This document shows positions 1 through 50,083 of a stretch of DNA of 64,000 nucleotides, in pieces. Origin of the DNA: Eledone cirrhosa (lineage: Eukaryota); contig OZ024741.1 of the NCBI GenBank assembly GCA_964016885.1, positions 93,062,001 to 93,126,000 of the forward strand. Direction: 5' to 3'. The translations under genes and the position numbers were made by a program. The notes below the pieces were generated by a model. That model was not told the DNA's origin and searched no databases. It saw only the letters and a program-made list of their open reading frames with translations. Every line of letters starts with the position of its first letter. Position 1 is the stretch's first letter.

Positions 1-1754
1 TCTGTTGTACTCTTCCCAGGCACAAAACCAAACTGCATCTCATCTAGTTTGACCCTTTCTCTAATTAGTTGTGCTAAAATCCTTTCTGCCACTTTCATAA
101 CCTGATCTATCAGTTTTATACCCCTATAATTGCTCCTCTCCAAAGCATCCCCTTTACCTTTGTAGCAATTTATGAGAATACTGCTGCACCAGTCTTTGGG
201 TATGACACCACCATATATAGCCTGATTGATTATGCGTGCAACCAGTTTAGTGCCTACGTCCCCTGATGCCTTCAGCATCTCAGCAACTATTCCCGATGGT
301 CCGGCCGCCTTACCATTTTTCATTTCCCTAATCGCCTCTTGGACCCTATATTCGTCAATCTCAATAGCTGGTCCCTCTGTCGGATCTACCAAGGGTAATT
401 TCTCTCTCTCCCATTCGTTCTCCACATTCATCAGTCTCTCATAATGACATTTCCAGGCCTCCTTTTTCTGGTCATTCGTGACACTAAGTACACCGGCATC
501 ATCCCGGACACATTTATCACCAACAACATCCTGATTTGCATTGACACACTGCCTTGCAATGTGGAACACCGCACGCCTCTGATCTTCCCGTCGCAGAACA
601 TTGGCAAACCTCCTCCTACTCTCTGCCTCCCTGCGTGCTAAGTACACCTGACGTCTAGCTTCTCTCTTAGTGGCTGTATATTCTTCCCTACTCCCACCCT
701 TATTCCAAGCCTTCCATGCTAGTCTTTTGTCTCTAATAGCCTTATCTACACTGCTGTTCCACCACCAGGTCACTCTCTGTCTGGTTGGAGCTCTGCTCCA
801 GCCACAGGTTTCATCAGTAGCCTTCAGCAAGTTGTCACGTAAGAACTTCCAGTTATTATCTATGTCATACGTCTCTAAATCGTCTTCTTTTTCGTCATAT
901 ACATCTTGAAGGGCTTTCCTAAATTTGAATTTTAGTGAAAGGTCTTTTAGCTTCCAGACCTTTCTTCTCCACACCTTCCTATATGTCTCATTCCATCTCT
1001 TGCTTACTGAGATATCACTAACAACTAACCTATGCTGTGGGGTACATTCTTCCCCAGGGTATGCCTTGGTATTAGACACTATCTGCCTGTCCCGCTGCCT
1101 AACTAGCAGGAAGTCAATCTGGCTTATGTGCTCACCAGATTTGTAGGTTATTAGGTGATTGGCAGGTTTCTGGAAGTTTGTGTTGCAAATAGTCAATGTA
1201 CTTGCATCACAAAATTCAAGAAGTCTCACTCCTTCTTCATTTCTTGAACCGTAACCGTGCCCACCATGTACCCCAGTGTAACCATCCTGGAGCTGTCCAA
1301 CATGACCATTGAAGTCTCCTGCTAGCATAACGATGTCTCCGTCCTCTGTCATTGTGGTTGTTTGCAAAACTTGCTCATAAAAGCAGTCTTTCTCATCTTT
1401 GCCTAGGCCTGCTTGGGGAGCATAGACCGAGATGATTGTCAGTAGTCTCCTACCTACAACTAATCTAAGCTTAATTATTCGATTACTAACTCGAACTACC
1501 TCTATTGTCTTATTGATCCATTTCTCAGCCAGGAAAATGCCTACTCCCCCTAACCCATCATTCTTACCTACCCAGAATAGCTTATAGCTAAGACGCTTGC
1601 CTACGACTAGTCTCGCAGAGGCACCCCTCCATCTCACCTCTTGCACGCAGCACACATCCACCTGCCTTCTCTCCAGCATCTCCGCTATTTCAGCAGACCT
1701 ACCTCTGAGAGTGCCAACATTAAGTGTTGCAACTCTGAGATGCGACGTCTTCAT
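1..1754 (-). mobile_element. RTE-clade LINE ORF (APE endonuclease and start of RT), running off the left window edge
   Basis: Minus strand from ATG at 1754 reads MKTSHLRVATLNVGTLRGRSAEIAEMLERRQVDVCCVQEVRW... and ends ...[15 protein letters not shown] at base 1. Homologous to, but diverged from, the RTE at 50449-53554. Confidence 0.92.
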
Positions 1755-1809
1755 ATTTTTTTTTTTCTATGCTGTTTTGTTGCTGTGCTGATAAGCTTTT
1801 TGGCATTGA

Positions 1810-1900
1810 TACACTGGTTGGATGCCCTTCCTAACACCAGCGCCACTTTACAGCATGGTCTGGGTGCTTTTATTTGTGCCACCAGCACTAGAGAGGATGT
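1810..1900 (-). mobile_element. Degenerate RTE/SINE 3'-tail fragment
   Basis: Contains ggatgcccttcctaacacc...tttacag...gggtgctttt, also present in the RTE 3' UTRs of this window. Confidence 0.65.
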
Positions 1901-2199
1901 CTTACTAGACTCAAGGGCCCTCTCTACCCCTCCATTTTACAGCATGGTCATTAAAAAAAAAAATAAAAAAAAAAAGAAACTTATTGACACGACTCACACA
2001 CTAATACTCATGCATACAAACCACAACCACACATACCAACACTCATTCATGCATACAATCATGCACACCACTCACAAACATATATATATATACATATATT
2101 ACCGACAGTACTGATACAAAATCAAAATCAAAGTCAAAATCGTCAAAATCACTATCATGTCAACTGTTGACCTTTCCCAGTCCAGTTCGGCTTGTATAT

Positions 2200-2550
2200 A
2201 ATAACAATAACAATAATAATTGTTTGTTTACGCTGGTAATGGCGGTGGTGGATGGTGTCAGTGTGGTGGTGGTGGTGGTGGCAGTTGTTGTTATTGTAGT
2301 TGTTACTGTTGTTGTTGTCCTTCATTTCACTGCTGCTGTTGCTGCAGACAATGGTGTTGATGCTGTTATTGCTGTCGCATATATACAAATACATACACAC
2401 ACATTCAACACAGACGATGGTGTTGTTGTTGTTGTTGTTGGTGTTGCTGCTGTTGTTGTTGTAGTTGTTGCTGTGTTGAAATCTGGTCGCATCCACTGAG
2501 ATATACATATACACACACATACACATATGTATATACACATACATACATCA
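2200..2550. repeat. Compound (GTT/GGT/GCT)n trinucleotide and (CA/TA)n low-complexity tract
   Basis: Directly visible. Confidence 0.85.
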
Positions 2551-2814
2551 AAAGAGAGTCAGCAGTATGTCAACAGGGGACAGGACAGCGACCTTAGAGT
2601 AATGTGGTGATGGTGGGGAGCGAGTGTAGGCGTTATTGTTAGTGTGGTGACGGGGGGGGGGGGGGTCGGTCAGTGAGATGTTACAAGTTCATAGATCACT
2701 TCTCTCTTTTCCTCTCTCTTCAAAATTTTGAATTTATGGCCTTTTGCAATGGCGGACAAGTATATATAATATATATATATATGAAGCAAAGAAAAGAAAA
2801 TTTTTTTTTCACTG

Positions 2815-3072
2815 ATATGAAAGATTTCCTGGTAGAAGTTCAGGTGTATTCAGTAATTGGTATCCAGTTTCGGGGTATCCAATTAGAAAATCCAACGAAT
2901 CTTTAAAAGGGGTCCACGCAACCATTGATATATATATCTATATATGTAAAATGCAAGCAGAAATGACAACGAAAGATTTCCTGGTAGAAGTTCAGGTGTA
3001 TTCAGTGTTGGTATCCAGTGTTAGGGTATCCAATTAGAAAATCCAACGAATTTTTGAGAGGGGTCCACGCAA
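2815..3072. repeat. About 100-bp direct duplication ending in aggggtccacgcaa; possible MITE remnant
   Basis: gaaagatttcctggtagaagttcaggtgtattcagt...ggtatccaattagaaaatccaacgaat...ggggtccacgcaa occurs at about 2820-2921 and 2972-3072. Confidence 0.6.
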
Positions 3073-3079
3073 GCATATA

Positions 3080-3343
3080 TATAGATATATATATGTATAT
3101 ATGCAAAATGCAAGCAGAAATAACAACACATATACTAATGAACATACATTAAACACAGAGGGACTGTAAATGATAATAGCAATATCTAGATATAAATATA
3201 TAAATGTACATATCTCTATTGGTCTCATAAATTTTAAATTTTCTCTTTCCTCTTGTGTGTGTGTAGCAACACGTGGTTGTGTGTTGCTGCTGACTCTAGC
3301 AGAGCCCAAGAAAACACGTCTTGCCCTAACAGCCGCTGCTCCC
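3080..3343 (-). mobile_element. Orphan LINE 5' end/5' UTR abutting a TA tract
   Basis: Minus strand gggagcagcggctgttagggcaAGACGTGttttc...agcagcaacacacaaccac resembles the 5' end of the LINE at 27079 (gagcagttgaagtataaGGACGTGttttt...agcagcaagtcacacagccac). Left boundary approximate. Confidence 0.5.
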
Positions 3344-14739: not shown

Positions 14740-17086
14740 CTGCCTATCGTTGCGAAGGCTAAAACTTTCATGTGGTGCTGAGTTTTGAAGGAAGCTACAG
14801 CATGTAGCTTTGGACATATATCAGGTAGTAAACCAGGACGAGTTCGAAAGGTAATTCGATTTTCACCTCCTAGCCTTATCAGACGCTAAATGGTATGCAC
14901 ATGCCTTGTTAGAGCATGTTAATTGAAATAACAAAACTTAGTTTGACTGGAAGCGTAGAATTTGGTTGAATTGACCATCTCGAACCATTAGACGGTATGC
15001 CTAAAAATCCTTGCAAGAAACGCGTTTAGACAATTCAGCACCGCTCGTTTGATTAACCTGGCGCAGTTCAAAGTTGTAGCCGTCTTCCCCGTTTGGAAAA
15101 AACCACGGGGTACTGGAGGCAGTCGTACGCTCGATTACTTGCGCAAACAAATGAAAGTCGACTGTCGCGATGATGAAGCACGATATTGCGCTTACCGTAC
15201 TGTTCACCGACCAAAATGGCTGCTACCTCGTTAGTAGTTGGAGCGTTGAAACGCCTGGGATGTTCTCCAGCAAGACGACGGTCAGCTTTAATGGTTAATT
15301 GAAGTTCGGGTCGGCCGTCCAGCAGTTCCAAAGCGTTCTTAAAATCTCTAACATTAGGGTGAGTTGCATGAAGCATGATTTGAAGGTTAGCAACAATACT
15401 CACGTCAACACTGGAATTTAACTTACATCTTTGGGAAACCTCCTCGTCAGACCCCCGCCCCCCTCCCTCCCCATGAAGACGACCTGCAGAAATTTGGGTT
15501 CCGTTTGGCTGCGGACGAAGACTGCCCATCAGATGGTACACTGACCCTGAATTTTGAAGGTGTACGCGTTTTCCTTTTTTTTTCTTTCAGAGTTGGAGTC
15601 TTCCTCACCACGGCCATTGTTGTTGCTGCCAGTGTTGGTAATTCTGCGTTCCCTGCCATCATTAACACCAAAAGATGTCATAGCAAAACACGAATTATAT
15701 TTCCACGTGTCCTTGCAGAATTTCTTGGTGTCGTTGGAGTTTCTGGTGAGCAGATTTTTCAGAATTTCAGGTGGATCTGCCAGCGCTTGAAGTCGACCCT
15801 TACCTCTAGAACAAAGACCGGGTGCCTTGCCGCCCCACTTCTTAACTCCGCAATACTGGCATATCTTGTTACTTTTACCAAGAGTTATGGCAGGGTGATC
15901 AGTAAAATCTTCAGAACGGCTGTAGTTGAAGCCAGCTTTCATCCAAACAACACCTCTTGCAGAAGCTACATTTCTTTGACGTTTCCCTGCCAGCCTTTCT
16001 TCTCTTACCTCAACCGACTCCCCGAGAAGAGAGCGTTGATTGTGGCTGCGTTTGTCAGCAAGGTGGGGCTCCCTTGCTTCGGCTGACTCTTCGAGAAGAG
16101 AGCGTTCATTGCGACCGCACATGTCAGTAAGGCGGGCCTGCCTTGCTTCTTCGGACTCCTCGAGAACCGAGCGTTCACGATACTGACGTGACGTTGAAAG
16201 TCTGCCTTCCCTTTGGCTAGCCGTTTCCTAGTAAAATAAAGACAAAAAAAGGTTAATTTAAAATAAAATACAGATAAACGTGTATTGCAAAATAAGCATA
16301 AAAAATAGAAGGCGTACCTGTGCTCGCGATTCCCTTTGTCGCAATTTAAGGAGTTTGGTTCTTTTAGAAGAGATAATAGAGCATTTTCGTTTAGACATAA
16401 CCTGTAAAAATGGATGTGAATATTTTTTACAAAAAAGGCGTATTGAAGTAGGGAAACCTGTAGTAGTTTTACACGATCGAACAAACTGTAAATGATTTTG
16501 AAGTGAAAAACGAACCACCGGAATGCCACCCACTTTAAACTGCTTATTGTAGTTAAATAAACTAATGAAATGCTTTATTAATTTGAATGTGTTGTTTATG
16601 CAGTAGAAGTCTGCTTAGAACTGTATTGTCAACTTAAGAATGAAATAAGATACGAAGAAAGCTCACGTGTTATTAAGAGACCAGAATGTACTCAAGTGAA
16701 AACCGCGCAAAAAATCAAATCTCCTAATCAAGAAATCGATAAAAATATTTTTTATCCAATAACCATGCGTTGAAGTTTCGTGGAAAAAGTAAAAAGAAAA
16801 AAAAGTGCTGAAATTTCAAGGGAGAAAATTCTTTTAAAAAATAAGAGATTATCTCCCTTTGTTATTGGATCATTGAATTTCTCTCAGTTCAATTTGAATG
16901 GGAAATTCGTGTTTCATCGATTTTCTCCGTAACCACGGAAGCTTGTAGGTTGAAAGTCGACCCAACGCCTCCTCGGGTCAATCTGCATAACTGTAAATTT
17001 TCGTTGCATTCCACCAAGCCGTTTCGACGTTTATCCGACTACACCTACATATACAACGTCCGACCACTTCCAATTTATAGAGTAGA
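14740..17086 (-). mobile_element. Helitron, 5' half (Rep N-terminal region, frameshifted)
   Basis: 5' end A|TCTACTCTATAAA at 17086. ORFs 15529-16122, 15068-15541 and 15001-15207 give CQYCG..KW..., YNSCFAMTSFG, FKIQGQ, YHLMGSL, EHPRRFNAPTTNEVA, AYDCLQYP and GEDGY. No 3' CTRR end found; left boundary approximate. Confidence 0.9.
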
Positions 17087-17099
17087 TTAACAGGTGTGA

Positions 17100-19920
17100 T
17101 GCAGGTGTTTTTGTATCTAATGTGTTCCAATATTTTTTTCAATATTGTCAGACAATATTTCTATCATGATATTGGCGAAAACAGCCTTTACATAATGGCA
17201 CTTTGCAAAAGGAACACATAAACGTGGTTTGAATTCCATAACATTTCATTTTTTCTCTTTTGCAAAGAGCACATTCGGCAAACCTTCTTCCTCCCATTAA
17301 TTTTCTCTACTTTGTGAAGATCAATATTTTCCGTGTTTACCTCAGATAATTTTGACTATCTCCCAGCTTTGAGTTTATGAGAAGTATATCCTCCACGTAG
17401 CTGAGAGGCAATGTCTACACAAAATTTCATGTGGCAGTAGTCCTTTGGTGGTGGAGGATTCTTGTGACTTTTAGTGAATACAATAAAAGAATTCACAATG
17501 GTTAAATTCACTAAAAACCACAAGATATATCTCCACCATTTCTTCCCAGGGCATCCAACTGGGTAGTAGGCGCAATATTGGTCGGATTTGTCAACCCCAC
17601 CCATATATTTATTATAGGAGATGTTGACTAAAGGTTTACCTTCAGCCTCAACTCCTGGTTGTTGGTTAGACCAGTGCTTCTCAAACTATCTGATGCCCTT
17701 CCCAGGGCGTCCGTGTAGTAGGCGCAATATTGGTCGAATTTGTCAACCCCACCCATATATTTATTATAGGAGAGGTTGACTAAAGGTTTACCTTCAGCCC
17801 CAACTCCTGGTTGTTGGTTAGACCAGTGCTTCTAAAACTATCTAATGTGGCAGACCGGTATTTTATTTTTTCAATGTGCCACGTACCGCTAATATTTTGT
17901 AGTAATATTAATTTATACCGGAAACGATATATATAATGAATATAATAATAGTTGACCATTTTTTTATCTATCTTCTATTTATTTTGTAAACATACAAAAA
18001 AGTAATAAAAAAAATTGCTCAAATGATTCCTTAGCATGGCCTGGACACTGGCCGCGTACCGGCACCTGATGGCTTGCGTACCGGCACAGGTCCGCGGACC
18101 ACCACTTTGAGTAGCACTGGGTTAGACGATAGGAACAAAATTTGCCGCTTGTCTTCATACAATGTGGCTAACAAGTTCCCTTTTTGTACTTGGAGAATGT
18201 CCCCTCTCTTTTTAAATTTTATGACTTTCATTTCTTGGGATAACCCTTTGATTCCCCATTATTGTACCGCAGGTGTACGTATTTACGAGGGCAAGATCCT
18301 CTGCTAGACGCACTAAAGAAAAAAAGGATCAAAATATGTGTGTCTGTTGAGTGGAAGGGTTCAGTCAGAGACCACACATCGTACCCCAAGCCACTTTTTC
18401 TCTCTCCGTTGTGTTTCTTTCCTGTGTAAACATCAAAGTTTACACAGTAGCCTGTGTCCCATTCACAGAGTTCCCACACCTTGATGCCCCATTTAGTAGG
18501 TTTAGCTGGCATATATTGTCTAAAATGAATTCTACTCTTATACCCAATCATAGCTTCATCAAGATTTTTCCCAGGTATATATACACTGTTTAAAATTTTT
18601 CAGAGAGCATTTTAATTACTGGTCGAACTTTATACAGAGGGTCATAATTACTGGTCGAACTTTATACAGAGGGTCATAATTGAAATCATTTCTACCAGGG
18701 GCATTTGAAGTATCAACCAGGTGCAAATATTGGTTTAATTTCAAATACCTTGTTTTTGGCATAAAACTCGATATATAAGCGTCGCTAAACCTTATATCAG
18801 TGTTCCAGTAATTCCACAGTCTTGGTTGGAAATTGTTTTATACCAAACAGTGTTTATGGTAAAAAACGCTTGCATCTCCGCAACATCTGTAGGTTGCCAT
18901 AACTGATCGTGTTTTCTTCGATATGAAATCTGCTGTTGGGCATATCGATTCGTCTCTTTTGCCACAACTTCGAAGACAGTTTGTGGCAAAAACAAAAAGA
19001 AATAATCCAGTGCTTTAGCATCGGAAGGTAATATATGCTGTGGACCAGTATTTTCAACAAAATCGGGAACATGTATTGGTGTGGTATTTTTCGACCATGT
19101 TGCTAAAATATCTTCAATGGCTCCCTGGAGATCTGGTTCGCTTTCACTTTCAAAACAATCATCGTCGGACGAAATTTCAGAAATATAAACATTATATTCA
19201 TTTGATAATATATCACTAATATTATCTTTTGTTTCTTGTTCATTCTGAATGTCGTCGTGTGTAAAACCTTCAAAGTCGGTATCGATACTTTCAGAAGCCA
19301 TGTTTATACAAAAAAAAAAATTTGTTCTACTTTCAAAGTTAAAAATATATAGATATATTAAAAATATATTGAATATATTAAAAATATATTAAATATATTA
19401 AATATTCATTAGTTAAGCAAAACAAGACCACAAACTTCACAAGGAAGGCATTATTAAAAGATTGTCAACATATTTTAGGAATGTAGAGAATAATAATAAT
19501 AATATTAATAATAATAATGTCCGTTTACAATTGTTTCGCTACTCCATATAATATTTCTGGATCAGATGACTATATATCATAATTGATCAGGTTCAGTTGA
19601 AAATAATTAACATATTTAAAAAAAAGAGTGGCTCATCGGAACTCAAAGGAATATAAATTAAAATAATGGGATAATGTTACATAATATAATGTTCCATATA
19701 TTGGTTTTTACTATGGTGTCTTGGTTGCATCAGCTGTCAGCCATAATCAAGCAGTATTCATCTGTCGAGGCTGCATTGTGTGAGATATGCCTATGGGTAA
19801 CAAGATGGCTGCCAAAGAGGGTGGTTTCAGGGGAAGTAACTTCTCGACAGATTGGAGATTGTGAGTATTTATAGTTAAGTGCTAGTTTTTAAATTTTTTA
19901 ATTGAGACAATGTAGGGGAG
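17100..19920 (-). mobile_element. piggyBac (PGBD4-like) transposase pseudogene
   Basis: Acidic N-terminus plus LDYFFLF..ETNRYAQQ (18792-19301), FRQYMPAKPTKWGIKVW (18228-18551), MGGVDKSDQ (17356-17604) and a Cys-rich C-terminus near 17170-17290. Element ends not established. Confidence 0.9.
17824..18119. mobile_element. hAT-type MITE nested in piggyBac, with 8-bp TSD GGTTAGAC
   Basis: Imperfect TIRs cagtgcttctaaaact / actttgagtagcactg; ggttagac at 17816-17823 and 18120-18127. Confidence 0.9.
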
Positions 19921-19943
19921 TTAACTTATAATTATCGAGTTCA

Positions 19944-22030
19944 TAGCAATTTAACTTATTAGCTACAAGTAGAAATGGGGCTACATGACTAAGAAAAAAA
20001 TAAGAATCATCCGCCAACTTGATAGTCCCCACTTCAGACTGAAGAGGTTTACATGGTTTGATTTCCAACCTGATGTTTTATTGGACAAGGTCATTTTTTC
20101 TTTGACATTTATTACGGTAGGATGTTCTATTTCGATGAGAGATCTCATGATTAATCCTTCTCTATCCTCATAGTCCAATCCAGTAATAGAAATAGGAACT
20201 CTAAAAGTACAATTCCTTAATCTTTCAATTCCGTTCATCGTATCATTTTTCCCACAATGTTTCTTTCCAAAGGCTGACTTCCAAACTCGTGATAGTGAAA
20301 TTGAAGAATTGTTGAATGACATATATTTAACATCTTTTGAAGTGACAGCTATTGATTTGTTGAACTGGACATAGAGAACTATGGTCTGGTATAACACCCC
20401 TGCCTGGTTGACATAACCACTAATCCCGCAATATGGCATTTCACAATAATGGTCGAATGGTATGATTATTCCAGCAGAATTTTCAAATCAACATAGTCTG
20501 GTCCGATCTTCATTGACATAGAAGTTTGTCTGTAGGATGGTCAAATTTTTACTACTTGTAGCAATTTAACTTATTAGCTACAAGTAGAAATGGGGCTACA
20601 TGACTAAGAAAAAAATAAGAATCATCCGCCAACTTAATAGTCCCCACTTCAGACTGAAGAGGTTTACATGATTTGATTTCCAACCTGATGTTTTATTGGA
20701 CAAGGTCATTTTTTCTTTGACATTTATTACGGTAGGATGTTCTATTTCAATGAGAGATCTCATGATTAATCTTTCTCTATCCTCATAGTCCAATCCAGTA
20801 ATAGAAATAGGAACTCTAAAAGTACAATTCCTTAATCTTTCAATTCCGTTCATCGTATCATTTTTCCCACAATGTTTCTTTCCAAAGGCTGACTTCCAAA
20901 CTCGTGATAGTGAAATTGAAGAATTGTTGAATGACATATATTTAACATCTTTTGAAGTGACAGCTATTGATTTGTTGAACTGGACATAGAGAACTGTGGT
21001 CTGGTATAACACCCCTGCCTGGAATTTATAAACGGGGTGGAGACCAGTGCTTATGGGATGGAAATAGCCCAGGAGCTCGGAATTTATTTTCCCTGTTTGA
21101 ATTAGTGTTTGTCTTGCAAGTTGACAGGATCGTATATAAAGTTGGACAGAGTCTTCTAACTTGGTTTGTTGAATAATGAGTCTAGTTGTTAAATGCCTGA
21201 TTTTGAAGTCTTGGTGACAAAGAGGTCTATGAGTCAATGATGGAATTTTTACAGAAACAAAAATTCCATCCTGGTTGACATAACCACTAATCCCGCAATA
21301 TGGCATTTCACGATAATTGTCGAAAGGAATGATTATTCCAGCAGAATTTTCAAATCAACATAGTCTGGTCCGATCTTCATTGACATAGAAGTTTGTCTGT
21401 AGGATGGTCAAATTTTTACTACTTGTAGCAATTTAACTTATTAGCTACAAGTAGAAATGGGGCTACATGACTAAGAAAAAAATAAGAATCATCTGCCAAC
21501 TTGATAGTCCCCACTTCAGACTGAAGAGGTTTACATGGTTTGATTTCCAACGTGATGTTTTATTGGACAAGGTCATTTTTTCTTTGACATTTATTACGTT
21601 AGGATGTTCTATTTCGATGAGAGATCTCATGATTTATCCTTCTCTATCCTCATAGTCCAATCCAGTAATAGAAATAGGAACTCTAAAAGTACAATTCCTT
21701 AATCTTTCAATTCCGTTCATCGTATCATTCTTTCCGCAATGTTTCTTTCCAAAGGCTGACTTCCAAACTCGTGATAGTGAAATTGAAGAATTGTTGAATG
21801 ACATATATTTAACATCTTTTGAAGTGACAGCTATTGATTTGTTGAACTGGACATAGAGAACTGTGGTCTGGTATAACACCCCTGCCTGGTTGACATAACC
21901 AATAATCCCGCAATATGGCATTTCACAATACTGGTCGAATGGTATTATTACTCCAGCAGAATTTTCAAATCAACATAGTCTGGTCCGATCTTCATTGACA
22001 TAGAAGTTTGTCTGTAGGATGTTCAAATTT
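19944..22030 (-). pseudogene. G: Endogenous rhabdovirus-like glycoprotein G fragment in three tandem copies (19944-20558, 20559-21425, 21426-22030)
   Basis: Translation C*FENSAG...(C/R)EMPYCGISG....G.F...PLC...SCQ...LLGYFHPISTGLHPVYKFQAGVL...MNGI...RVP...IEHP...SSWRMILIFFLV is colinear with recalled VSV/rabies G motifs. Multiple N-x-S/T sites; hydrophobic C-terminus. Confidence 0.8.
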
Positions 22031-23720
22031 AATGGAAAAACATGCCCAAGAGGATGGAGCAGCCATTGGTGTTAGCATTGCAGGCGACATAGCTAACTTA
22101 TTCATGGTATGGTGGGACAGTAGACTTAAACTTAAACTTAAAGAACAATTAGAAGACAGCTTAACCCTGATAATGTACTCCCGCTACGTAGATGATATAA
22201 ACATCGTAGTTAAGACACCCCCACTAGAGAACAGTCAGGAACTAGAGAAAAACACAATGGAAAGCATCCAGCAAATAGCAAACTCCATCCACCAGAGCAT
22301 TAGAGTTACTATAGACTACCCAAGTAGACACCCCAACCATCGATTACATGTACTAGACACAGAGCTCTGGTTAGATACCATTAACAACCAAAAACAAATC
22401 CTCCATTCCCATTATGCCAAACCCATGACTTCCAAACATCTGATCCACCGAAACTCGTCCATTTCGGACCATACCAAAATCAACATACTGATTGCGGATT
22501 TGGTACGGGTGATGAGAAATGTGTACCGCATGTGCAACCCCGAAGAACTAGAGAGACACATACAACACTTCATCCACCGTTTGCAGTTCTCTGGCTACAA
22601 TCAGAGAGATAGAATCAGAGTGTATAGAGGAGCCAGAACCAAATGGGAAAAAATGGTAAATAATGACATAAATGGGACCTGCCCCTTGTATAGGAGCAAA
22701 TTTTGGAATAGAATAGAAAGAACTAGGAACAAGGCCAATAGAATAAACTCATGGTATGATAGCAATAAATACCAGAGTGTAATGTTCATCAATACAACCC
22801 CTAGATGCGAACTAGCCTACAAATTTAGAAGGGCCCTAAATAAATATAAACTCAATATTAAGATAGTAGAAAGACCAGGTACCTCCGTAAAAACACTTAT
22901 TAGCAAGACATACCCGTTCCAAAGACCCTCATGTATAGATAAGAAATGTATAACCTGTAAAATAAGCCCCCATATTAACTGTAAAACTAGAAATGTAGTG
23001 TATAGCATAAGATGTACTGAAGGACAATGTAGAAACAAAAATATAGTGTACATAGGTGAGACAGCTCGTAGTATAGGGGAACGGATAAATGAACACTGGC
23101 GAGACCTTCAAGATAATAAAGAATCATCTGTACTCTACCAACATGCTAAGATAGAACACAAGGGTAAATTAGAGAACATAGAAATAAAAATAGAATCCAC
23201 ACACAGAAAAGATGCAATGTTTAGGCAAATTACAGAGGCAGTAAGCATAAAAGAATTACAACCAAAATTAAATAGAAAATATGAGTGGAACAGCAACATC
23301 ACAACTTACAATTAAGGACAAAATGAAAACACACACACACATAGAACAAACAACCAACCAACAACATGTAAATAAATAAACAAATAGATAAATGAACACA
23401 AACACACACAGACACCCGGATGTGGCGCATGCGCAAACTGAGCACACAACACACACACAGAAACAAAATGGCGTAGGACAGAAGAAAGGAAAGGCACAGA
23501 AACAAAGAAAGGAATCCCCAGTCACTGAAGAGGTCACAGAGTGTGTGACGAAAGGACTATGACTATATATAAACAACTATCTGGTTGTGGAACCAACCAA
23601 CCAACCAGAAATTTATAGGTTTGTAGATTTGTAAATTTATAAATATATAATAAATTGAAGTGAAAGCAACTGGTGCGTGTGTTTCTTATTGGCAACATGA
23701 CCCTCCCAAAGTATAACAAT
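22022..23720 (+). mobile_element. 5'-truncated Penelope-like element (RT C-terminal half, Cys linker, GIY-YIG endonuclease, 3' pLTR); possibly Nematis-like
   Basis: ORF 22008-23315: GAAIGVSIAGDIANLFM, SRYVDD, VVYSIRC...YIGETARS..ER..EH, EA..I....P.LNRK.E. Clade assignment is tentative. Confidence 0.92.
23520..23564 (+). ncRNA. Minimal type I hammerhead ribozyme in the PLE pLTR
   Basis: agtca-CTGAAGA-g-gtcaca(gagtg)tgtgac-GAAA-ggac-TA^-tgact: 5-bp helix I, 6-bp helix II, 1-bp helix III with tetraloop. Confidence 0.85.
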
Positions 23721-23758
23721 ATATATATATATATATATATATTAAAATAACAGATTAA

Positions 23759-23855: not shown

Positions 23856-25157
23856 TGCCCAGGTCTCACTGCCATGCAACATTGCTGTTCGTATGCAGGC
23901 ATCATACAACCTGCCTTTCATTTTTAGGGAGAACCCTTTAGCGGCTAATAGCGGTATAAGCTCTGAACTTTTTCCATCCAGTTCTGACTCTAGCTACTGT
24001 ACTTTCAGAGCACCCTCCCCCACTGCTGATTTTGTCACCCAGGTAACGGAAGCTGTCCACTATTTCTATAGAACCCTCTGCGCAGTTGAAAGAGCTAGTA
24101 TTTTGTGGGCACTTGCTGCTACTTATTGCCCCAGAACACCGGCCACATGTAAAATCTATGTTCTTAGTTAGCTTACCTGTGATCCCACTACATCTTTTAT
24201 GCACCCATACTTTGCATTTGGGACACAAAATGGAGTTTCTACCTACGCCTTTCCTACACACTGAGCATGGCCACTTCCCGGAGGGGACCGCCGCCTTATT
24301 TTCTTTCTTGCAAACTAGAACTTTAGTCTTAGCCAGGTTAATTTTAAGGCCTTTTGATTCTAGGCCGTGCTTCCATGTTTGGAATTTCTTCTCTAGCTCG
24401 GCCATTGATTCAGCTATGAGCGTTAGATCATCTGCGTATAGGAGTTCCCATGGGCAGCCGGTCTTGAACTCCACTGTTATAGCCTGGAGGGCAATAATAA
24501 ATAGTAGGGGGCTAAGAACAGAGCCCTGATGGACACCAACTTTTACACTAAACTCTTCACTATATTCGTTGTTAATTCTAACCTTGCTGACTGTTTCTTT
24601 ATACATGGCTTGTATAGCTCTCACAAGCCATTCATCAACACCTAGTTTTCTAAGAGCCCACCAGATAATGGAACGGGGGACTCTGTCGAAGGCTTTCTCC
24701 AAGTCGACGAAAGCTAAGTATAGGGGTTTACTTTTAGCTAGGTACTTCTCCTGTAGTTGTCGTACAATGAAAAGAGCGTCTGTGGTACTTTTTCCTGACA
24801 CAAACCCGAACTGCATTTCATCTAGATCAATTCGCTCTCTGATTAGTTGCGGTATTACTTTTTCCGTGACCTTCATGACCTGGTCGATTAATTTAATGCC
24901 TCTATAGTTACTCCTATCTAGGGCATCTCCTTTACCCTTATAACAGTTAACGATGATGCTGCTACGCCAGTCCTTCGGAACAAACACATTCTGTATGACT
25001 TGGTTGACTATCCGGGTGACCATGGTGTGTCCCACCGTACCAGATGCCTTCAGCATCTCGGCAACTATTTCCGAAGCAACACCGCCTTACCCGTCTTCAT
25101 ATCTTTGATTGCCTTACTTATTATACTACCCTCGACTAACACGCCTTTCCTACACAC
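23856..25157 (-). mobile_element. Internal RTE RT fragment, truncated at both ends
   Basis: ORF 23938-25056 contains [19 protein letters not shown] and YADD; the RTE 3' end is missing. Confidence 0.95.
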
Positions 25158-40343: not shown

Positions 40344-41003
40344 CGTTGATCTAGAGAGAGGGAGAAAGAGAGCTCGTTGATCGAGAGAGAGAGAGAGGAA
40401 GGAAGGAAGGAGAGAGATAGAGACAGCGTGAGAGCGTGAGCAACAGCAGTTCATAAACATAAAAATAAATTTTTAAATTTAAATTTAAATTTAAATTAAT
40501 GAATGGAAGAAACCGGAAACATAGAGATATAGAAACACGATGTAAATGTCTGTTTACAAATATACGAAGTTATTGTAATATCAGCATATCATACAAGAAA
40601 CAACGAAATCGGGTCAAATACAGATAAGATTATACAAAATCAAACAAGATTATATCAAATTAAATTATGTTACTCAGAAAAATCAAAATTAATACAAGAT
40701 CTGCTTAAGTTAAACCAAAATGCTCTGTATGGTAGACAAACAAAAATAGAAAGCACGTGTGTGTGTTGTCTCCTATGAATGAATCATACAGTGAAAATAA
40801 ACATGTTCAAAACGGTAATATATGTAAAATATACTTCAAAATAATTGCGTCAAAGCACAAAAACTTATCTTTTTTGTATGTTTTCCTTGTCCTCTGAAGA
40901 ATTAAAACCATACATAAATCCGATTACTGTCGATTTAAAATATTAAAATTTCAAGAGACGACAATTCACGTCTTATACCAACAAGTGCCAAGCCTACTAT
41001 AAC
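36121..41003 (-). mobile_element. Full-length CR1/L2-group LINE, family B, copy 1 (ORF2 frameshifted near 38855)
   Basis: ORF1 ~39348-40103; ORF2 split into 38819-39235 and 38685 downward; 3' end (GTAAAAGA)2. Confidence 0.95.
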
Positions 41004-41133
41004 TATATATATATATATAAATATGTATATATATAAATATGTATATATATATAAATATGTATATATATAAATATGTATATATATATGTATATAAATATGT
41101 ATATATATATGTATATATATATATATGTATATA

Positions 41134-41171
<38 letters not shown>

Positions 41172-41458
41172 TGTATATATATAATATTATATATATATAA
41201 TATGTTATATATATAAATGTATATATATATAAATATGTATATATATATAAATATGTATATATATAAATATGTATATATATAAATATATATATATATAAAT
41301 ATGTATATATATAAAATATATATAATATATAAATATGTATATATGTAAATATGTATATATATAAATATGTATATATATTAAATATGTTATAATAAATTAT
41401 ATATATATATATATAAAATATATATATATATATATAATATGTATATATATAAATATCT

Positions 41459-41489
<31 letters not shown>

Positions 41490-41490
41490 A

Positions 41491-41531
<41 letters not shown>

Positions 41532-41540
41532 TGTATATAA

Positions 41541-41577
<37 letters not shown>

Positions 41578-41754
41578 TGTATATAAATATGTATATATAT
41601 ATATATATATGTATATAAATATGTATATATATATATATATAAATATGTATATAAATATGTATATATATATATATATAAATATGTATATATATAAATATAT
41701 AAATATGTATATAAATATGTATATATATATATAAATATATAAATATGTATATAA

Positions 41755-41795
<41 letters not shown>

Positions 41796-42315
41796 TGTAT
41801 ATAAATATGTATATATATATATATATATATAAATATGTATATAAATATGTATATATATATATATATATATATAAATATGTATATATATATATATATATAA
41901 ATATGTATATATATATATAAATATGTATATGTATATATATATATATAAATATGTATATATATATATATATATATATAATATGTATATATATATATATATA
42001 TAAATATATATATAAATATGTATATAAATATGTATATATATATATATATATAAATATGTATATAAATATGTATATATATATATAAATATGTATATAAATA
42101 TGTATATATATATATATATAAATATGTATATAAATATGTATATATAAATATGTATATAAATATGTATATATATATATATATAAATATGTATATAAATATG
42201 TATATATAAATATGTATATAAATATGTATATATATATATATATATATATAAATATGTATATATATATATATATAAATATGTATATATATATATATATAAA
42301 TATGTATATATATAT

Positions 42316-42346
<31 letters not shown>

Positions 42347-42347
42347 A

Positions 42348-42402
<55 letters not shown>

Positions 42403-42419
42403 AATATGTATATATATAT

Positions 42420-42450
<31 letters not shown>

Positions 42451-42517
42451 AATATGTATATATATATATATATATATATAAATATGTATATATATAAATA
42501 CGTATATATGTATATAT

Positions 42518-42548
<31 letters not shown>

Positions 42549-42575
42549 AATATGTATATATATATATGTATAGAT

Positions 42576-42608
<33 letters not shown>

Positions 42609-42609
42609 A

Positions 42610-42656
<47 letters not shown>

Positions 42657-42683
42657 GTATAGATATATATATATATAAATATA

Positions 42684-42723
<40 letters not shown>

Positions 42724-42740
42724 TGTATATATATATATAA

Positions 42741-42833
<93 letters not shown>

Positions 42834-42835
42834 TG

Positions 42836-42917
<82 letters not shown>

Positions 42918-42958
42918 TGTATATATATATATATATATATATAAATATGTATATATAA

Positions 42959-42995
<37 letters not shown>

Positions 42996-43119
42996 TGTAT
43001 ATATAAATATGTATATATATATATATAAATATGTATATATAAATATGTATATATATATATATATATGTATATATATAAATATGTATATATATATATATAT
43101 GTGTATATATATAAATATG

Positions 43120-43171
<52 letters not shown>
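41004..43171. repeat. (TA)n-derived tract, 2.2 kb
   Basis: Directly visible. Confidence 0.97.
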
Positions 43172-43172
<1 letters not shown>

Positions 43173-43245
43173 TCTTTTACTCTTTTACCTGTTTCAGCCA
43201 TCCGGCTGAGGCCATGCTGGGGCACCGCCCTTGTTGCTACACATT

Positions 43246-46200
43246 TTATCTCCAGCCTGCATAGGTTGGCCACTGGTGTAGGAGGGAGTTTGTTGCTGCT
43301 GCCCTTAGGTTTCCCTCGTGTCTTGCTGTGGGCTCATCCGGGATCCTGGACAACAAGGTGTTGAGATGTTTCTTAAAGACATCCACCTCCACGTCATGCA
43401 AGTCTCGCAGATGCCTCGGCAGCCTGTTGAAGAGTTGAGGGCCCTTGAATCCCAGGCTATTGCAATACCTGCTCCTTATTCTAGATGTGGAAGACGGGAC
43501 CTTTGGCACCACACAGTGACGTCCTGTTCGATGGTTGGTCCAGCTCCCAATGCCAAAGTTTGGTGCTAGTCCCTCCAGGATTTTCCACATGTAGATCACT
43601 GTGTATCTCTCCCGTCTTCGCTCCAAGGAGTAGAGGTTCAGCTCCTTCAGCCTCTCCCAGTAGCTTGTCTCCCTCATCTTGGCAATCCTCTTGGTGTAGC
43701 TTCGCTGGATTGCCTCAAGCTCTGTGGTTAGTTTGACACTATGGGGTGACCACAGCTGGGAGCAGTAGTCCAGGCGGCTTAGGACAAAAGTCCTCCACAG
43801 TGTCAACATGGTGTCTCGATCTCTTGTAAGGAAAGTCCTCAAGATCCAGCCAGCGAATCGTCTACATGCTGTCGCCACCTTCATGATGTGTGAAGAAAAA
43901 GATGCATCATCGCTCATGTCTATGCCCAGGTCTCGTATCGATTTTGACACGGGGATATCGGTCCCTCCTGGTCCTGTGTAGCTGTGTTCTGCTATATTTG
44001 TGTTTGTGTTTGCAGGTTTGTATTGTAGGGCTTGGAATTTGCCAGCATTAAACTGCATGTTGTTTTCTTCCGCCCATCTGTATATGGCATCCAGATCCTG
44101 CTGTAAGAGGGCAGCGTCAGCCGGGTTTATGATTGCCTGTGCTACCTTAGTGTCATCAGCATAGCTAGTGAGGGATGTTGTTGCATGCACCACAGAGGGC
44201 ATGTCTGAGAGAGCCACCAAAAACAGTAGTGGTCCCAGGACTGTCCCCTGAGGCACCCCACTTGTTATCGGTGTTTCCCTCGAGAGGGCCCCATTTGCTG
44301 CGACTGCCTGGCTTCTGTCCCTTAGGAAGCCATGCAGCCACTCACCTACTTTTCCAGTTATGCCGAGTCCGTGTAGTTTGTGACATATCATTCCGTGGTC
44401 GACCTTGTCAAAGGCCTTCGCAAAGTCAAGATATATCACGTCTACATGTGAGCTGTCTAGTAGTTGTCTCAGTACCCAGTCGTAGTGATGTAGCAGCTGT
44501 GTAAGGCAGCTTCTTCCTGGGCGGAAGCCATGTTGCGTGCTAGTCAGGTGGTCATTTTCTTCGAGGAAAGTGTTTAGTTTCTTTCTGACGACTCGCTCCA
44601 TGACCTTACTGATATGCGACGTCAGGGAGACTGGCCTATAGTTCTTGGCCTCCGCTCTACTACCTCCTTTATGGATAGGGCATATTGTGCCTTCTTTCAG
44701 CTCCCTGGGTAGTACACCGCTAGCCAAGGAGCTTCTGAAGAGCATCTTCAGTGGAGTTGCTAAGGCCCGCTTACATATTTTTAGGAGAACTGCTGGGAAT
44801 CCATCAGGTCCAGCAGCCGAGTTTGTTCTAATTTCATCAATGGCGTTCACCACATCCTCCTCCGTTATGTCTATGTGGTTGATGGTTGCCATTTCTTGAT
44901 GTAGTGTTGTGGCATCAAAGAACTCCTCTGGCTTCGTTATTTGCATGTGCCTCAGTGGACATGTGAAGACACTTTTGTACTGTTCGTTCAGTATTTCACA
45001 TATCTCTTGGGGATTTTCGGTTAATGAACCGTCCGTGTGGAAGAGTGGTCCAATCTTGCAGTGTACTGAGGCAGTTTCTTTTGCAAATTTAAAGAAGGCC
45101 TTAGGGTTTGTTTTAATGTTTTCTATGGCCCTGTTCTCTTTCCTTGCCCTCTCATTCTCATGTGAAAGCTTGAGTGCAATCTCGGTGTCAAGTAGTGCAC
45201 GTTTCAAATAGGATTCCTTCTTGTTTTGGTTTTGTTGACTATTCAACTGGTTTGAGAGTTTAGTTTTACGTCTCATAAGGATTTTCCTATCTCTGGGAAT
45301 AAGATTTTTGTGTCTGTTTGCCTCTTTCTCCGGGACACACTTTTTGCATATGGTGTGTATCGTTGTCATGAAGTGTTGAAATTGTGTGTTAGTGTGTTGT
45401 GTGGCGATGTTTGCACTCCATGTTTGCTTCCGGATTTCACTCTTAATCTTCTTCCAGTCAGCCCCGTAGACGTTAAGGCTGGATAGCGTCCCGGAGCTTC
45501 TTGGTGGTTTTGTCTCTGTTGGTTCTCTTGGACCACATATCATTAGCTCTACCAAGTTATGATCCGAGAGAATTGTTGGTGTCACCTTTACATTGTGGAT
45601 GAGCACTTCGTTGTTTGTAAAACAGAGGTCCAGGACATTTTCGCCTCTTGTTGGGAGGAGTATTGCTTGCTCCATGAACAGCCTGTGTGTGAGGGCCAGC
45701 AGGGATTCCGTCTGTCTCTGTTCTATTGACGTCATTCCAGGGAGGAGGTGGCCCTCAGGCCATTTGACCTTTGGTAGGTTGAAGTCTCCCAGCAGTAGGA
45801 TGTTGAGACCCTGGTCCAGTTTGTCAAGGACCTCTTCTATCCTACTTAGGCTATCCTCAAATTTACCCTCATGACTGGGGGCATCGGCCGGCCGATATGT
45901 GACACATATTACCGTCTGTAGTTGCTTCATATGTATTATCAGTGTGTCACAGACTGAGTTTGAATGTGTCAACAGTACAATTGGTGTGACATCTTCACGG
46001 ATATACAGAGCAACCCCACCATGAGTTCTCTCCTTCCTGTCCGAACGAAATACAGTATATTTCGGTATATGTATTTCTGCATCTGCTATACTGCTTGTCA
46101 GGTGCGTTTCGGTTAGTGCCATGCATAGTGCTTGATTGCTTATGGCTAAGTCTCCCAGGTAGGAAATTTTACTCATGTTGCTGAGTTTCACCAGGCCCCT

Positions 46201-46287
46201 GACATTCAGCAGCAGCACTGGTGTGACTTTTGGGGTGCCAGTAATGGCTGTCGGTATGACACCTGGTCTGGTGTCAGCAGCGGCCAC
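43246..46287 (-). CDS. Intact LINE ORF2 (APE and RT), 1013 aa, no ATG at the frame start
   Basis: [42 protein letters not shown]. Confidence 0.95.
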
Positions 46288-46399
46288 TCTGGCTTAACTG
46301 CGGTGGTCTCGAGTGCTGGTGTGGATGACCCTGGCTCTGGAGACGATGCAGCCAGGTCAACTGTCCCACAATCTTCTCTGCCATCACTAAAAAATTTTT

Positions 46400-47155
46400 C
46401 TAATCTGCTGCTGCCATCTGTATCTCGTCGGCATGTGCGTGCCTTCTCCTTGTTGGTGCAGCACGCGCGACATCAGCATACTTCTGGAGCGGCTTATTTC
46501 GGCTTAGGCTGGGGCATGTTGCGCGAGTATGATGGGCATAGTTCGTTTGAGACCTAGGGTGGGCGAATCTGCATCCCATCCCTGTCTCTCCATGCCAGCA
46601 TGTCCCGTTCTTGAAAAACTTGCACATTACTTGGGGTTTTTTGCTCCCAGTGTCTCGGTGCTTTCTGTTCTTTCTTTGAACAGTTGTCCACTGGTCCCTC
46701 TGCGCTTGGTTCTCCTTCGGAAGGTGATTTCGCTTTTCACCTTTGCCCTTAGCTTGTTGGTTGCCCGGCCTGCCCTCCCTGCCTGTAGCGGAGGGTATAT
46801 CATTTTCTTTCAGGTCCGTGCTTGTGCTCTCCTCCTTTTCTTTTTCCCTTTCCTTTTCCTCTTCCTTTTCCCTCTCCTTCTCCTCATCCCTCCCTTCGGT
46901 TTTCTCCTCCCTGAGGACACGGCTTAGCATCGCCATATGAGGCGCTATGAGGACATACGCCTTCTCAATTTCTTTTCTCTTTCTCTCTATCTGTACCAGG
47001 GTCCTCAGAAACCCATGGCTCTTCAGGTTCTCCGCCATCTTTTTGCTTGGTGGAGACCCATCAGCCATAGTCCACCCCTTGATCAAAACCGCTAGTTCAA
47101 TCTTCGACCAGTTTCGCTGACACCTGATTTCACATTTTTCCTGCATGCAGTCCAT
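46400..47155 (-). CDS. LINE ORF1: Myb/SANT(trihelix)-like domain, charged linker, CCCH finger
   Basis: RNWSKIELAVLIKGW...KKMAENLKSHGFLRTLVQIERKRKEIEKAY; CKFFKNGTCWHGETGMGCRFAH. Confidence 0.8.
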   Translation of the reverse strand: MDCMQEKCEIRCQRNWSKIELAVLIKGWTMADGSPPSKKMAENLKSHGFLRTLVQIERKRKEIEKAYVLIAPHMAMLSRVLREEKTEGRDEEKEREKEEEKEREKEKEESTSTDLKENDIPSATGREGRPGNQQAKGKGEKRNHLPKENQAQRDQWTTVQRKNRKHRDTGSKKPQVMCKFFKNGTCWHGETGMGCRFAHPRSQTNYAHHTRATCPSLSRNKPLQKYADVARAAPTRRRHAHADEIQMAAAD

Positions 47156-47347
47156 TTCGCTGTGGAGGGGGGAAAGAGAGACAGTGGGAGGTGTAGGGTA
47201 GAGGTTAGAGAGGGACAGAGTGAGGGAGGGAGATAGAGATATAACTCCAGCGAGAGAAAAAGAAAGAGAAACAGAAGAAAAGAAAAGAAAAGGGGGAGAC
47301 AGAAGAGGGGAGCGAGAGAGATAGCGGGAAGAGTGGGGGGGGGGTCA

Positions 47348-47396
<49 letters not shown>

Positions 47397-48063
47397 CGTT
47401 GATCTAGAGAGAGGGAGAAAGAGAGCTCGTTGATCGAGAGAGAGAGAGAGGAAGGAAGGAAGGAGAGAGATAGAGACAGCGTGAGAGCGTGAGCAACAGC
47501 AGTTCATAAACATAAAAATAAATTTTTAAATTTAAATTTAAATTTAAATTAATGAATGGAAGAAACCGGAAACATAGAGATATAGAAACACGATGTAAAT
47601 GTCTGTTTACAAATATACGAAGTTATTGTAATATCAGCATATCATACAAGAAACAACGAAATCGGGTCAAATACAGATAAGATTATACAAAATCAAACAA
47701 GATTATATCAAATTAAATTATGTTACTCAGAAAAATCAAAATTAATACAAGATCTGCTTAAGTTAAACCAAAATGCTCTGTATGGTAGACAAACAAAAAT
47801 AGAAAGCACGTGTGTGTGTTGTCTCCTATGAATGAATCATACAGTGAAAATAAACATGTTCAAAACGGTAATATATGTAAAATATACTTCAAAATAATTG
47901 CGTCAAAGCACAAAAACTTATCTTTTTTGTATGTTTTCCTTGTCCTCTGAAGAATTAAAACCATACATAAATCCGATTACTGTCGATTTAAAATATTAAA
48001 ATTTCAAATCCGGAGAGATGACAATTCACATCTTATACCAACAAGTGCCAAGCCTACTACAAC

Positions 48064-50083
<2,020 letters not shown>

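What the first reader, a model, noticed from the sequence alone, without database searches (positions are those of the whole stretch)
19944..22030. Endogenous rhabdovirus glycoprotein (G) in a probable cephalopod genome, triplicated in tandem
Seen: minus-strand ORFs 19981-20439, 20596-21306 and 21634-21921 plus upstream in-frame sequence. Colinear by-eye matches to recalled vesiculovirus/lyssavirus G: RLC*FENSAG ~ rabies KTCGFVDERG; CEMPYCGISGYVNQDGIF ~ VSV CKMQYCKHWGVRLPSGVWF; SCQ ~ LCQ; LLGYFHPISTGLHPVYKFQAGVL ~ DLSYLAPKNPGTGPAFTIINGTL; MNGI..RVP ~ PNGV..KFP; IEHP ~ FEHP; GLSSWRMILIFF ~ WFSSWKSSIASFF before the TM segment. Rhabdoviruses encode no RT, so integration needed a host retroelement. 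All three copies share the TGA at the likely Gly codon, implying one integration and later DNA-level amplification. I know of few or no cephalopod rhabdoviruses, so this may record an unknown viral lineage.
Basis: partly seen in the sequence, partly recalled or inferred. Interest (0 to 1): 0.9.

Follow-up and report, generated by a model that had tools for sequence, protein, structure and literature searches.

The report
Rhabdovirus gene fossil captured by Penelope
A broken half of a rhabdovirus envelope gene sits in three tandem copies in this probable octopus chromosome, joined at one end to a Penelope retrotransposon and at the other to a probable second one that likely copied it in, a route into genomes I found no report of for RNA viruses.

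Summary
Real. The minus strand at 19994-22030 carries rhabdovirus glycoprotein G: Pfam PF24833 E=1.7e-11; 41% identical over residues 201-470 of an unnamed intact 520-aa G. Only the C-terminal half of the ectodomain is present, without signal peptide, fusion domain or anchor. Copies 1 and 3 lack 252 nt; all three share one stop. Each repeat unit includes 50 nt of a host element, so amplification followed fusion to host DNA. Both are about 1% or less from their families, so the event is young. Best reading (0.55): PLE-B reverse transcriptase jumped onto viral mRNA; triplication and PLE-A followed. The genome holds 13 further rhabdovirus-like loci (N, L, G); none lies beside these PLEs and at least three N loci sit in LTR-like repeats. 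Cephalopod rhabdoviruses are already named in a 2023 paper title; I found no report of cephalopod rhabdovirus EVEs or of PLE-mediated capture.

The parts
17070..19345 (-). Older piggyBac-like DNA transposon, the apparent insertion target; its last ~200 bp (5' terminal repeat) are missing from the window
   Evidence: DDE_Tnp_1_7 hits; 44/1188 = 3.7% from the majority of 14 family copies; their continuation finds no match in the window
19380..19993 (-). PLE-B: stop codon and 3' UTR of a probable Penelope-like element, 5'-truncated 2 nt before its stop, same sense as G
   Evidence: Family copies carry an RT-motif/GIY-YIG-type ORF ending here (Pfam GIY-YIG only E=0.04); 6/586 = 1.0% from the majority of 19 copies
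19994..20551 (-). Rhabdovirus G fragment, copy 3, with the 252-nt in-frame deletion; stop at 20488-20490
   Evidence: tblastn to P0001 residues 201-258 and 333-470; 1 private change in 593 nt
20552..20608 (-). Internal junction: 7 nt that fold back on the adjacent host sequence, plus 50 nt of PLE-B
   Evidence: hairpin -9.6 kcal/mol
20609..21418 (-). Rhabdovirus G fragment, copy 2, undeleted; stop at 21355-21357, then a 252-codon open frame
   Evidence: PF24833 E=1.7e-11; 41% to P0001 residues 201-470, E=6e-63; 8 private changes
21419..21475 (-). Second internal junction, identical to the first (7-nt fold-back plus 50 nt of PLE-B)
   Evidence: bridged by X1 contig 21337-21460
21476..22030 (-). 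Rhabdovirus G fragment, copy 1, with the deletion; stops at 21970-21972 and 21634-21636; last 12 nt (22019-22030) are the microhomology shared with PLE-A
   Evidence: 11 private changes
22019..23742 (+). PLE-A: 5'-truncated Penelope-like element (RT C-terminal part, GIY-YIG endonuclease, 3' UTR, TA tail), head-to-head with G
   Evidence: 39 other copies listed at 98-99%; family copy hits GIY-YIG E=1.2e-4 and RVT_1 E=6e-4; 7/1482 = 0.47% from the majority of 11 copies

Best explanation
This is a dead, young endogenous viral element: the C-terminal ectodomain half of a rhabdovirus G gene, likely written into the germline when the reverse transcriptase of a probable Penelope-like element (PLE-B) jumped from its own RNA onto viral G mRNA, and then likely triplicated as DNA and clipped by a second Penelope-like insertion (PLE-A). 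Steps: (1) inferred: PLE-B primed at an AT-rich tract in the 5' region of an older piggyBac and copied about 610 nt of its own 3' end; (2) inferred from the same-sense, gap-free junction at 19993/19994: it switched onto plus-sense G RNA at the start of the anchor-coding region and copied at least 0.8 kb; (3) shown: one stop is shared by all copies and every repeat unit holds 50 nt of PLE-B, so amplification came after the fusion; the 7-nt fold-back at the unit junction suggests end-joining repair (inferred); (4) shown: two copies share a 252-nt deletion between 5-nt microhomologies; (5) inferred: PLE-A inserted later and joined its 5' end to copy 1 through an 11/12-nt microhomology, deleting what lay between. 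No protein function is expected; any function would be as antisense or piRNA template (untested).
For: Identity. Both viral ends abut a PLE 5' end with no other host DNA between. Same-sense fusion of a foreign RNA to a 5'-truncated retroelement is the template-switch geometry described for U6/LINE chimeras (PMC4476161, passages); Penelope elements form head-to-head structures, join 5' ends by microhomology and mobilise other sequences in trans (PMC3846280, passages), and head-to-head pairs occur in this genome (L050, L051, L055). PLE-B (1.0%) is coeval with copies 1 and 2 (1.9%, 1.3%; Fisher p=0.33 for copy 1); PLE-A (0.47%) is less diverged than either (p=0.006, 0.044). Copies 2 and 3 keep the non-PLE form of the 12-mer, so they predate or parallel the PLE-A join; 33 of 784 viral 12-mers have so good a match anywhere in PLE-A. 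No further G sequence of this lineage lies beyond either PLE or elsewhere in the assembly.
Against: No target-site duplication or empty site could be reconstructed: the piggyBac end is missing, so insertions with deletions happened and order is not proven. PLE-B copies are sometimes truncated near this same point without viral DNA (2 of 19 within about 25 nt), so a later PLE-B insertion is possible. PLE-B's class rests on motifs read by eye and a weak Pfam hit. 0 of 13 other rhabdovirus-like loci lie beside PLE-A, PLE-B or the right-flank repeat. The 20 differences between copies are clustered (p=0.004) and uneven (11, 8, 1; p about 0.01), so they are a poor clock and weaken the 'PLE-A later' step. 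PLE-B's low divergence leaves little time for the shared stop to arise before duplication. No listed contig bridges the PLE-A junction.
Confidence: 0.55

Rival explanations
1. Viral cDNA was made by another reverse transcriptase (LTR element or LINE), inserted by end-joining, and both Penelope-like elements landed later and clipped its two ends.
For: At least three N-gene loci in this genome sit between LTR-like direct repeats (L042, L043, L045). In Aedes aegypti LTR elements, not Penelope, are enriched beside viral integrations (PMC5497376 Table 3, passage). PLEs are abundant here (617 and 1962 first-look candidates).
Against: Needs two independent clipping insertions on a 0.8-kb target, both leaving no trace of the original flanks or of an LTR; PLE-B must precede the triplication and is as old as the copies.
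Confidence: 0.2
2. One twin-primed event: PLE-B and PLE-A primed on opposite strands of the same break, viral cDNA was captured and re-copied between them, and the two cDNAs joined by the 12-nt microhomology.
For: Head-to-head geometry typical of PLEs here; PLE-A and PLE-B divergences do not differ significantly (p=0.21); twin priming gives inverted chimeras in LINEs (PMC4476161, passages).
Against: Copies 1 and 2 are more diverged than PLE-A (p=0.006, 0.044); the shared stop would have to be a copying error; the sampled inverted pairs are of one family, not two.
Confidence: 0.17
3. PLE-A alone was the vehicle, jumping by the microhomology onto genome-sense viral RNA; PLE-B came later.
For: 11/12-nt match exactly at the junction.
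Against: PLE-B was attached before triplication; copies 2 and 3 extend past the PLE-A junction; PLE-A looks youngest. Genome-sense RNA is encapsidated (general knowledge).
Confidence: 0.05
4. Assembly artefact: viral contamination, or a mis-assembled repeat number.
For: Copy 3 carries the majority base at 19 of 20 variable sites, as a polished consensus would. X1 may be the assembly's own sample.
Against: The locus lies inside a 416-Mb contig among host repeats; it has stops and deletions; X1 contigs bridge an internal junction and cover the copy-2-only segment without differences, shared segments at depth 21.6 against 9 for unique ones; a second sample (X4) bridges the PLE-B/G junction with 100 nt of flank. 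Only the exact copy number (2 or 3) and copy 3's bases remain in some doubt.
Confidence: 0.03

Closest known systems
Rhabdovirus glycoprotein G (VSV, Chandipura, lyssavirus G; Pfam PF00974/PF24834/PF24833)
   Same: Central domain over the curated cut-off; its intact relative P0001 hits the fusion and central domains, the PH domain weakly, and solved G proteins at E 3e-17 to 1e-3.
   Different: Fragment only (residues 201-470 of 520); no direct phmmer hit to any solved G; 23-27% to the next relatives: a divergent lineage with one unnamed close relative.
Rhabdovirus-derived non-retroviral EVEs (NIRVS) of Aedes and other arthropods
   Same: N, G and L fragments, post-integration duplications, retroelement neighbours (PMC5497376, passages).
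   Different: Host is a mollusc, probably an octopod; the neighbours here are Penelope-like, a class not enriched near Aedes NIRVS (0.2% against 0.42% genome-wide in that table).
LINE template-switch chimeras (U6/L1) and twin-primed chimeras
   Same: Foreign RNA copy fused in sense to a 5'-truncated retroelement 3' end; inverted partner possible (PMC4476161, passages).
   Different: Passenger is viral mRNA; the element is a PLE; no target-site duplication; later tandem amplification.
Penelope-mediated trans-mobilisation of host genes in Adineta vaga
   Same: PLE termini flank foreign sequence; head-to-head repeats; microhomology 5' junctions (PMC3846280, passages).
   Different: There a host gene framed by one family's pLTRs with a TSD; here a cytoplasmic RNA virus fragment between two different families.
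Cephalopod rhabdoviruses of Rey-Campos et al. 2023 (Front Mar Sci 10:1209103)
   Same: Same virus family and host class according to the title.
   Different: Title seen only. Whether their sequences match this lineage, or whether some are transcribed EVEs, or whether they discuss EVEs, I could not see.

Membership tests
Rhabdovirus G (class III fusion protein) | Central domain PF24833 | tested here: met
   E=1.7e-11, 44.7 bits, cut-off 27.2; genome-wide search finds only this place
Rhabdovirus G (class III fusion protein) | Fusion domain PF00974 and signal peptide | tested here: not met
   Absent at this locus; present in relative P0001. Filed as a fragment derived from G, not as a working G
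Rhabdovirus G (class III fusion protein) | C-terminal transmembrane anchor and tail | tested here: not met
   Homology ends at P0001 residue 470; host PLE-B begins at 19993
Rhabdovirus G (class III fusion protein) | Class III fold | tested here: inconclusive
   Model pLDDT 44; Foldseek's named top hits are rhabdovirus glycoproteins (best E=8.7e-6) but TM-scores are about 0.2
Rhabdoviridae subfamily or genus | Placement in an L-protein phylogeny and N-P-M-G-L gene order | not testable with these tools
   No L linked to this G. An L EVE elsewhere scores higher on VSV L (460 bits) than on 6ueb (364; rabies L, recalled) and far lower on other families (44 or less)
Non-retroviral EVE | Embedded in host chromosome with host junctions | tested here: met
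   G000:C2, 416 Mb; left and internal junctions bridged in contigs of X4 and X1
Non-retroviral EVE | Disabling changes and neutral decay | tested here: met
   Shared stop, extra stop, deletion; 8 of 20 differences synonymous against 0.255 expected, p=0.11
Non-retroviral EVE | Inherited across individuals or species | tested here: inconclusive
   Seen in 2 samples of one study; not in the organism B run; RAD-seq run does not cover it
Penelope-like element (PLE-A) | RT followed by C-terminal GIY-YIG endonuclease | tested here: met
   Family copy L057: RVT_1 E=6e-4 (below cut-off), GIY-YIG E=1.2e-4 (at cut-off)
Penelope-like element (PLE-B) | RT followed by C-terminal GIY-YIG endonuclease | tested here: inconclusive
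   RT-type motifs and a Cys-rich YIG domain read by eye in L120; Pfam GIY-YIG E=0.04, nothing; blastp to PLE-A E=0.004 in that domain
Penelope-like element | Inverted head-to-head or partial tandem copies | tested here: met
   L050, L051 (PLE-B), L055 (PLE-A)
Penelope-like element | Hammerhead ribozyme in the terminal repeat | tested here: inconclusive
   None among 113 sub-threshold Rfam matches in 4 loci; minimal hammerheads can be missed
Template-switch retro-chimera | Passenger in the same sense, directly 5' of a truncated retroelement | tested here: met
   G/PLE-B junction at 19993/19994
Template-switch retro-chimera | One insertion framed by a target-site duplication or matching empty site | tested here: not met
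   Left flank piggyBac does not continue on the right; so the chimera is inferred, not proven

The most novel reading that the evidence does not exclude
First case of a Penelope-like reverse transcriptase endogenising an RNA virus by jumping onto its mRNA, in a cephalopod germline that has been hit repeatedly (14 loci) by an undescribed clade of rhabdoviruses whose close relative still has an intact G.
Probability: 0.6. Interest if true: 0.72.

Novelty: new variant of a known kind. Interest (0 to 1): 0.6.

Why it matters
It shows that rhabdoviruses infect this cephalopod itself, germline included, rather than its food or parasites, which transcriptome surveys cannot show; it warns that some rhabdovirus reads from cephalopods may be endogenous; and, if the junction reading holds, it adds Penelope-like elements to LTR elements and LINE-1 as a third reverse-transcriptase route for RNA-virus endogenisation. 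The locus is young enough (about 1%) that empty and intermediate alleles may survive, which makes the mechanism directly testable.

Tried and rejected
Word-indexed protein searches found nothing for the G fragment among longer proteins, only P0001 itself for P0001 and nothing for an N EVE; the full HMMER scan gave 4 hits, of which P0002 (repetitive, no Pfam G domain) was dropped as spurious. IMG/VR scans with the L EVE and the G alignment found no relative. Atlas look-alikes for G scored 0.85 or less, leads only. Direct PDB search with the fragment: 0 hits. I first read the 50-nt repeat as a DNA-transposon terminal inverted repeat; longer copies showed it to be the end of a retroelement ORF in inverted pairs. 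A rolling-circle RNA template was considered: no hammerhead found, and deleted-full-deleted order does not fit simple rolling. Copies from different viral RNA molecules were considered: synonymous excess not significant (p=0.11) and the shared stop argues against. No RNA holder listed. Earlier scan notes: none. Literature: 9 searches answered; none listed a cephalopod rhabdovirus EVE or PLE-mediated capture, judged from listings and from passages of 8 papers; no supplements were read, and Rey-Campos 2023 with its supplements, which may bear on novelty, is not held.

Full report
Observation. The three minus-strand frames exist as described and are 97.6-98.9% identical. The middle frame matches the rhabdovirus G central domain (PF24833, E=1.7e-11). 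HMMER over 1.84 billion representatives gave 4 hits: P0001, an unnamed intact 520-aa protein from Logan (42%, E=3e-55), P0003 and P0004 (27%, 23%), and one repetitive protein without G domains, dropped. P0001, P0003 and P0004 all hit the G fusion and central domains, and P0001 hits 17 solved G sequences. tblastn places the fragment at P0001 residues 201-470, 41% identical, across one stop. The fold prediction was poor (pLDDT 44); its named Foldseek top hits were rhabdovirus glycoproteins with TM-scores near 0.2, so it adds little. Signal peptide, fusion domain, anchor and tail are missing here, and P0001 finds nothing else in the genome.

Host. The window is G000:C2:93.06-93.13 Mb of a 3.0-Gb assembly. 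It has molluscan haemocyanin genes whose best single-unit match is 1js8 (octopus by recall). A cephalopod, probably an octopod, is therefore supported.

Repeat anatomy. The unit is 50 nt of a host repeat plus antisense G plus 7 nt that fold back on the host part. Copy 2 is 867 nt; copies 1 and 3 lack the same 252 nt between 5-nt microhomologies. Over 593 shared sites copy 1 has 11, copy 2 has 8 and copy 3 has 1 private change. All share one stop; copy 1 has a second. Because host sequence is inside the unit, amplification followed the fusion to host DNA. The changes are clustered (p=0.004) and uneven (p about 0.01), and 8 of 20 are synonymous (expected 0.255, p=0.11): neutral decay with some conversion, burst mutation or consensus polishing of copy 3.

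Flanks. Right: a 5'-truncated element begins at 22019 on the plus strand, 98-99% identical to the 39 other copies listed; a longer copy encodes RT and GIY-YIG: a Penelope-like element, PLE-A. Its first 12 nt match 11 of the 12 nt found at that place in copies 2 and 3; 33 of 784 viral 12-mers match that well anywhere in PLE-A. Left: 19380-19993 is the 3' end of a second family whose longer copies carry a 698-codon frame with RT-type motifs and a terminal YIG domain and form inverted pairs; Pfam support is weak, so PLE-B is a probable PLE. The G frame joins it in the same sense 2 nt before its stop codon. Beyond PLE-B lies a piggyBac-like element, 3.7% from its family majority, whose last ~200 bp are absent from the window; PLE-B is 1.0% (6/586) and PLE-A 0.47% (7/1482) from theirs. 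At an assumed 2-4e-9 substitutions per site per year (assumption, not measured) that is a few million years.

Reads (4 of the 8 listed runs were laid, on 19650-22700). X1 contigs cover shared segments at depth 21.6 and unique ones at 9, include the copy-2-only segment without differences, and bridge one internal junction; X1 may be the assembly's own sample and summed depth is not a copy number. X4, a second sample of the same study, bridges the PLE-B/G junction. No listed piece bridges the PLE-A junction or spans the array. The organism B run and the RAD-seq run have next to no depth on the viral part.

Mechanism. Rhabdoviruses have no DNA stage (established knowledge). A foreign RNA fused in sense to a 5'-truncated retroelement is the template-switch pattern of U6/LINE chimeras (PMC4476161, passages), and PLEs make head-to-head structures, microhomology junctions and trans-mobilised passengers (PMC3846280, passages). 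I put 0.55 on PLE-B jumping to G mRNA, then DNA triplication, then PLE-A; 0.17 on a single twin-primed event; 0.05 on PLE-A alone; 0.2 on another RT with both PLEs arriving later; 0.03 on artefact. So about 0.75 that a PLE enzyme made the insertion, less the doubt about PLE-B's class. Against: no target-site duplication, 2 of 19 PLE-B copies truncated near the same point without virus, and an unreliable clock.

Genome context. Family searches found 8 L matches at 4 loci (stricter first look, a floor), 8 N loci and one more G piece (the other 2 of 3 matches there are simple repeats): 13 further loci. None matches PLE-A, PLE-B or the right-flank repeat in the fetched flanks of about 1.5 kb; three N loci lie between LTR-like repeats and the long L lies beside an LTR integrase. 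The L EVE is rhabdovirus-like, nearest VSV L among solved structures; that it comes from the same virus as this G is not shown.

Known and new. Rhabdovirus EVEs with duplications are common in mosquitoes and are LTR-associated there (PMC5497376, passages). Cephalopod rhabdoviruses are announced in the title of Rey-Campos et al. 2023, which I saw only as a reference. My searches listed no cephalopod rhabdovirus EVE and no PLE-mediated capture of a virus; the library lacks most subscription journals. Other papers seen as passages only, with nothing bearing on this: PMC12548735, PMC10101049, PMC9550988. Verdict: a real, non-functional EVE; new host class for the kind, probable new capture route; new variant of a known kind; interest 0.6.

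Noticed in passing
L045 (G000:C5:74.85 Mb) 1139-2862 and L042 (C4:337.14 Mb) 1158-2861: The same unit, a truncated LTR-like repeat, an antisense rhabdovirus N gene, a purine tract and a full TG...CA repeat, at two unlinked sites, 92% identical with different flanks: an N-carrying LTR chimera that seems to have moved after capture.
   Followed up: partly
L043 (G000:C2:55.89 Mb) 836-2872: N gene fragment between two 98%-identical LTR-like repeats of about 180 bp.
   Followed up: partly
L044 (G000:C2:47.05 Mb) 716-3112: N plus the start of a following frame (P?) with an A-run gene junction between them, framed by 102-bp direct repeats: copied from genome-length or read-through RNA rather than one mRNA.
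   Followed up: partly
L034/L035/L037 (G000:C3:130.160-130.165 Mb): Long L-polymerase EVE (E=5e-146, few stops) reaching the methyltransferase domain, next to an LTR-element integrase on the opposite strand; closest solved structure VSV L.
   Followed up: partly
L040/L041 (G000:C27:16.99 Mb): Scrambled L fragments in partial tandem and inverted copies, 74-77% identical in DNA to the C3 L EVE.
   Followed up: no
L123:4907-5352 (G000:C2:14.13 Mb): A second G EVE: N-terminal and fusion-domain piece (PF00974 E=1e-6) of another lineage, closer to P0003 than to P0001, not beside these PLEs.
   Followed up: partly
L042-L049: The eight N loci are 65-92% identical where they align, pointing to repeated integrations from a clade of related viruses.
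   Followed up: partly
X4 contig on window 19894-20317: In a second sample the leftmost copy shows two bases private to copy 2 and two private to copy 1: a mosaic allele or a contig path through collapsed copies.
   Followed up: no
window 23856-25086 (-), 56846-58124 (-), 15068-16227 (-): An RT-plus-PHD LINE fragment (RVT_1 E=1e-31), a second PLE-A-like copy at 71%, and Helitron-looking frames (by eye).
   Followed up: no
window about 36000-50000: About 7-kb segmental duplication separated by 2-kb TA microsatellites, seen as repeated rows.
   Followed up: no
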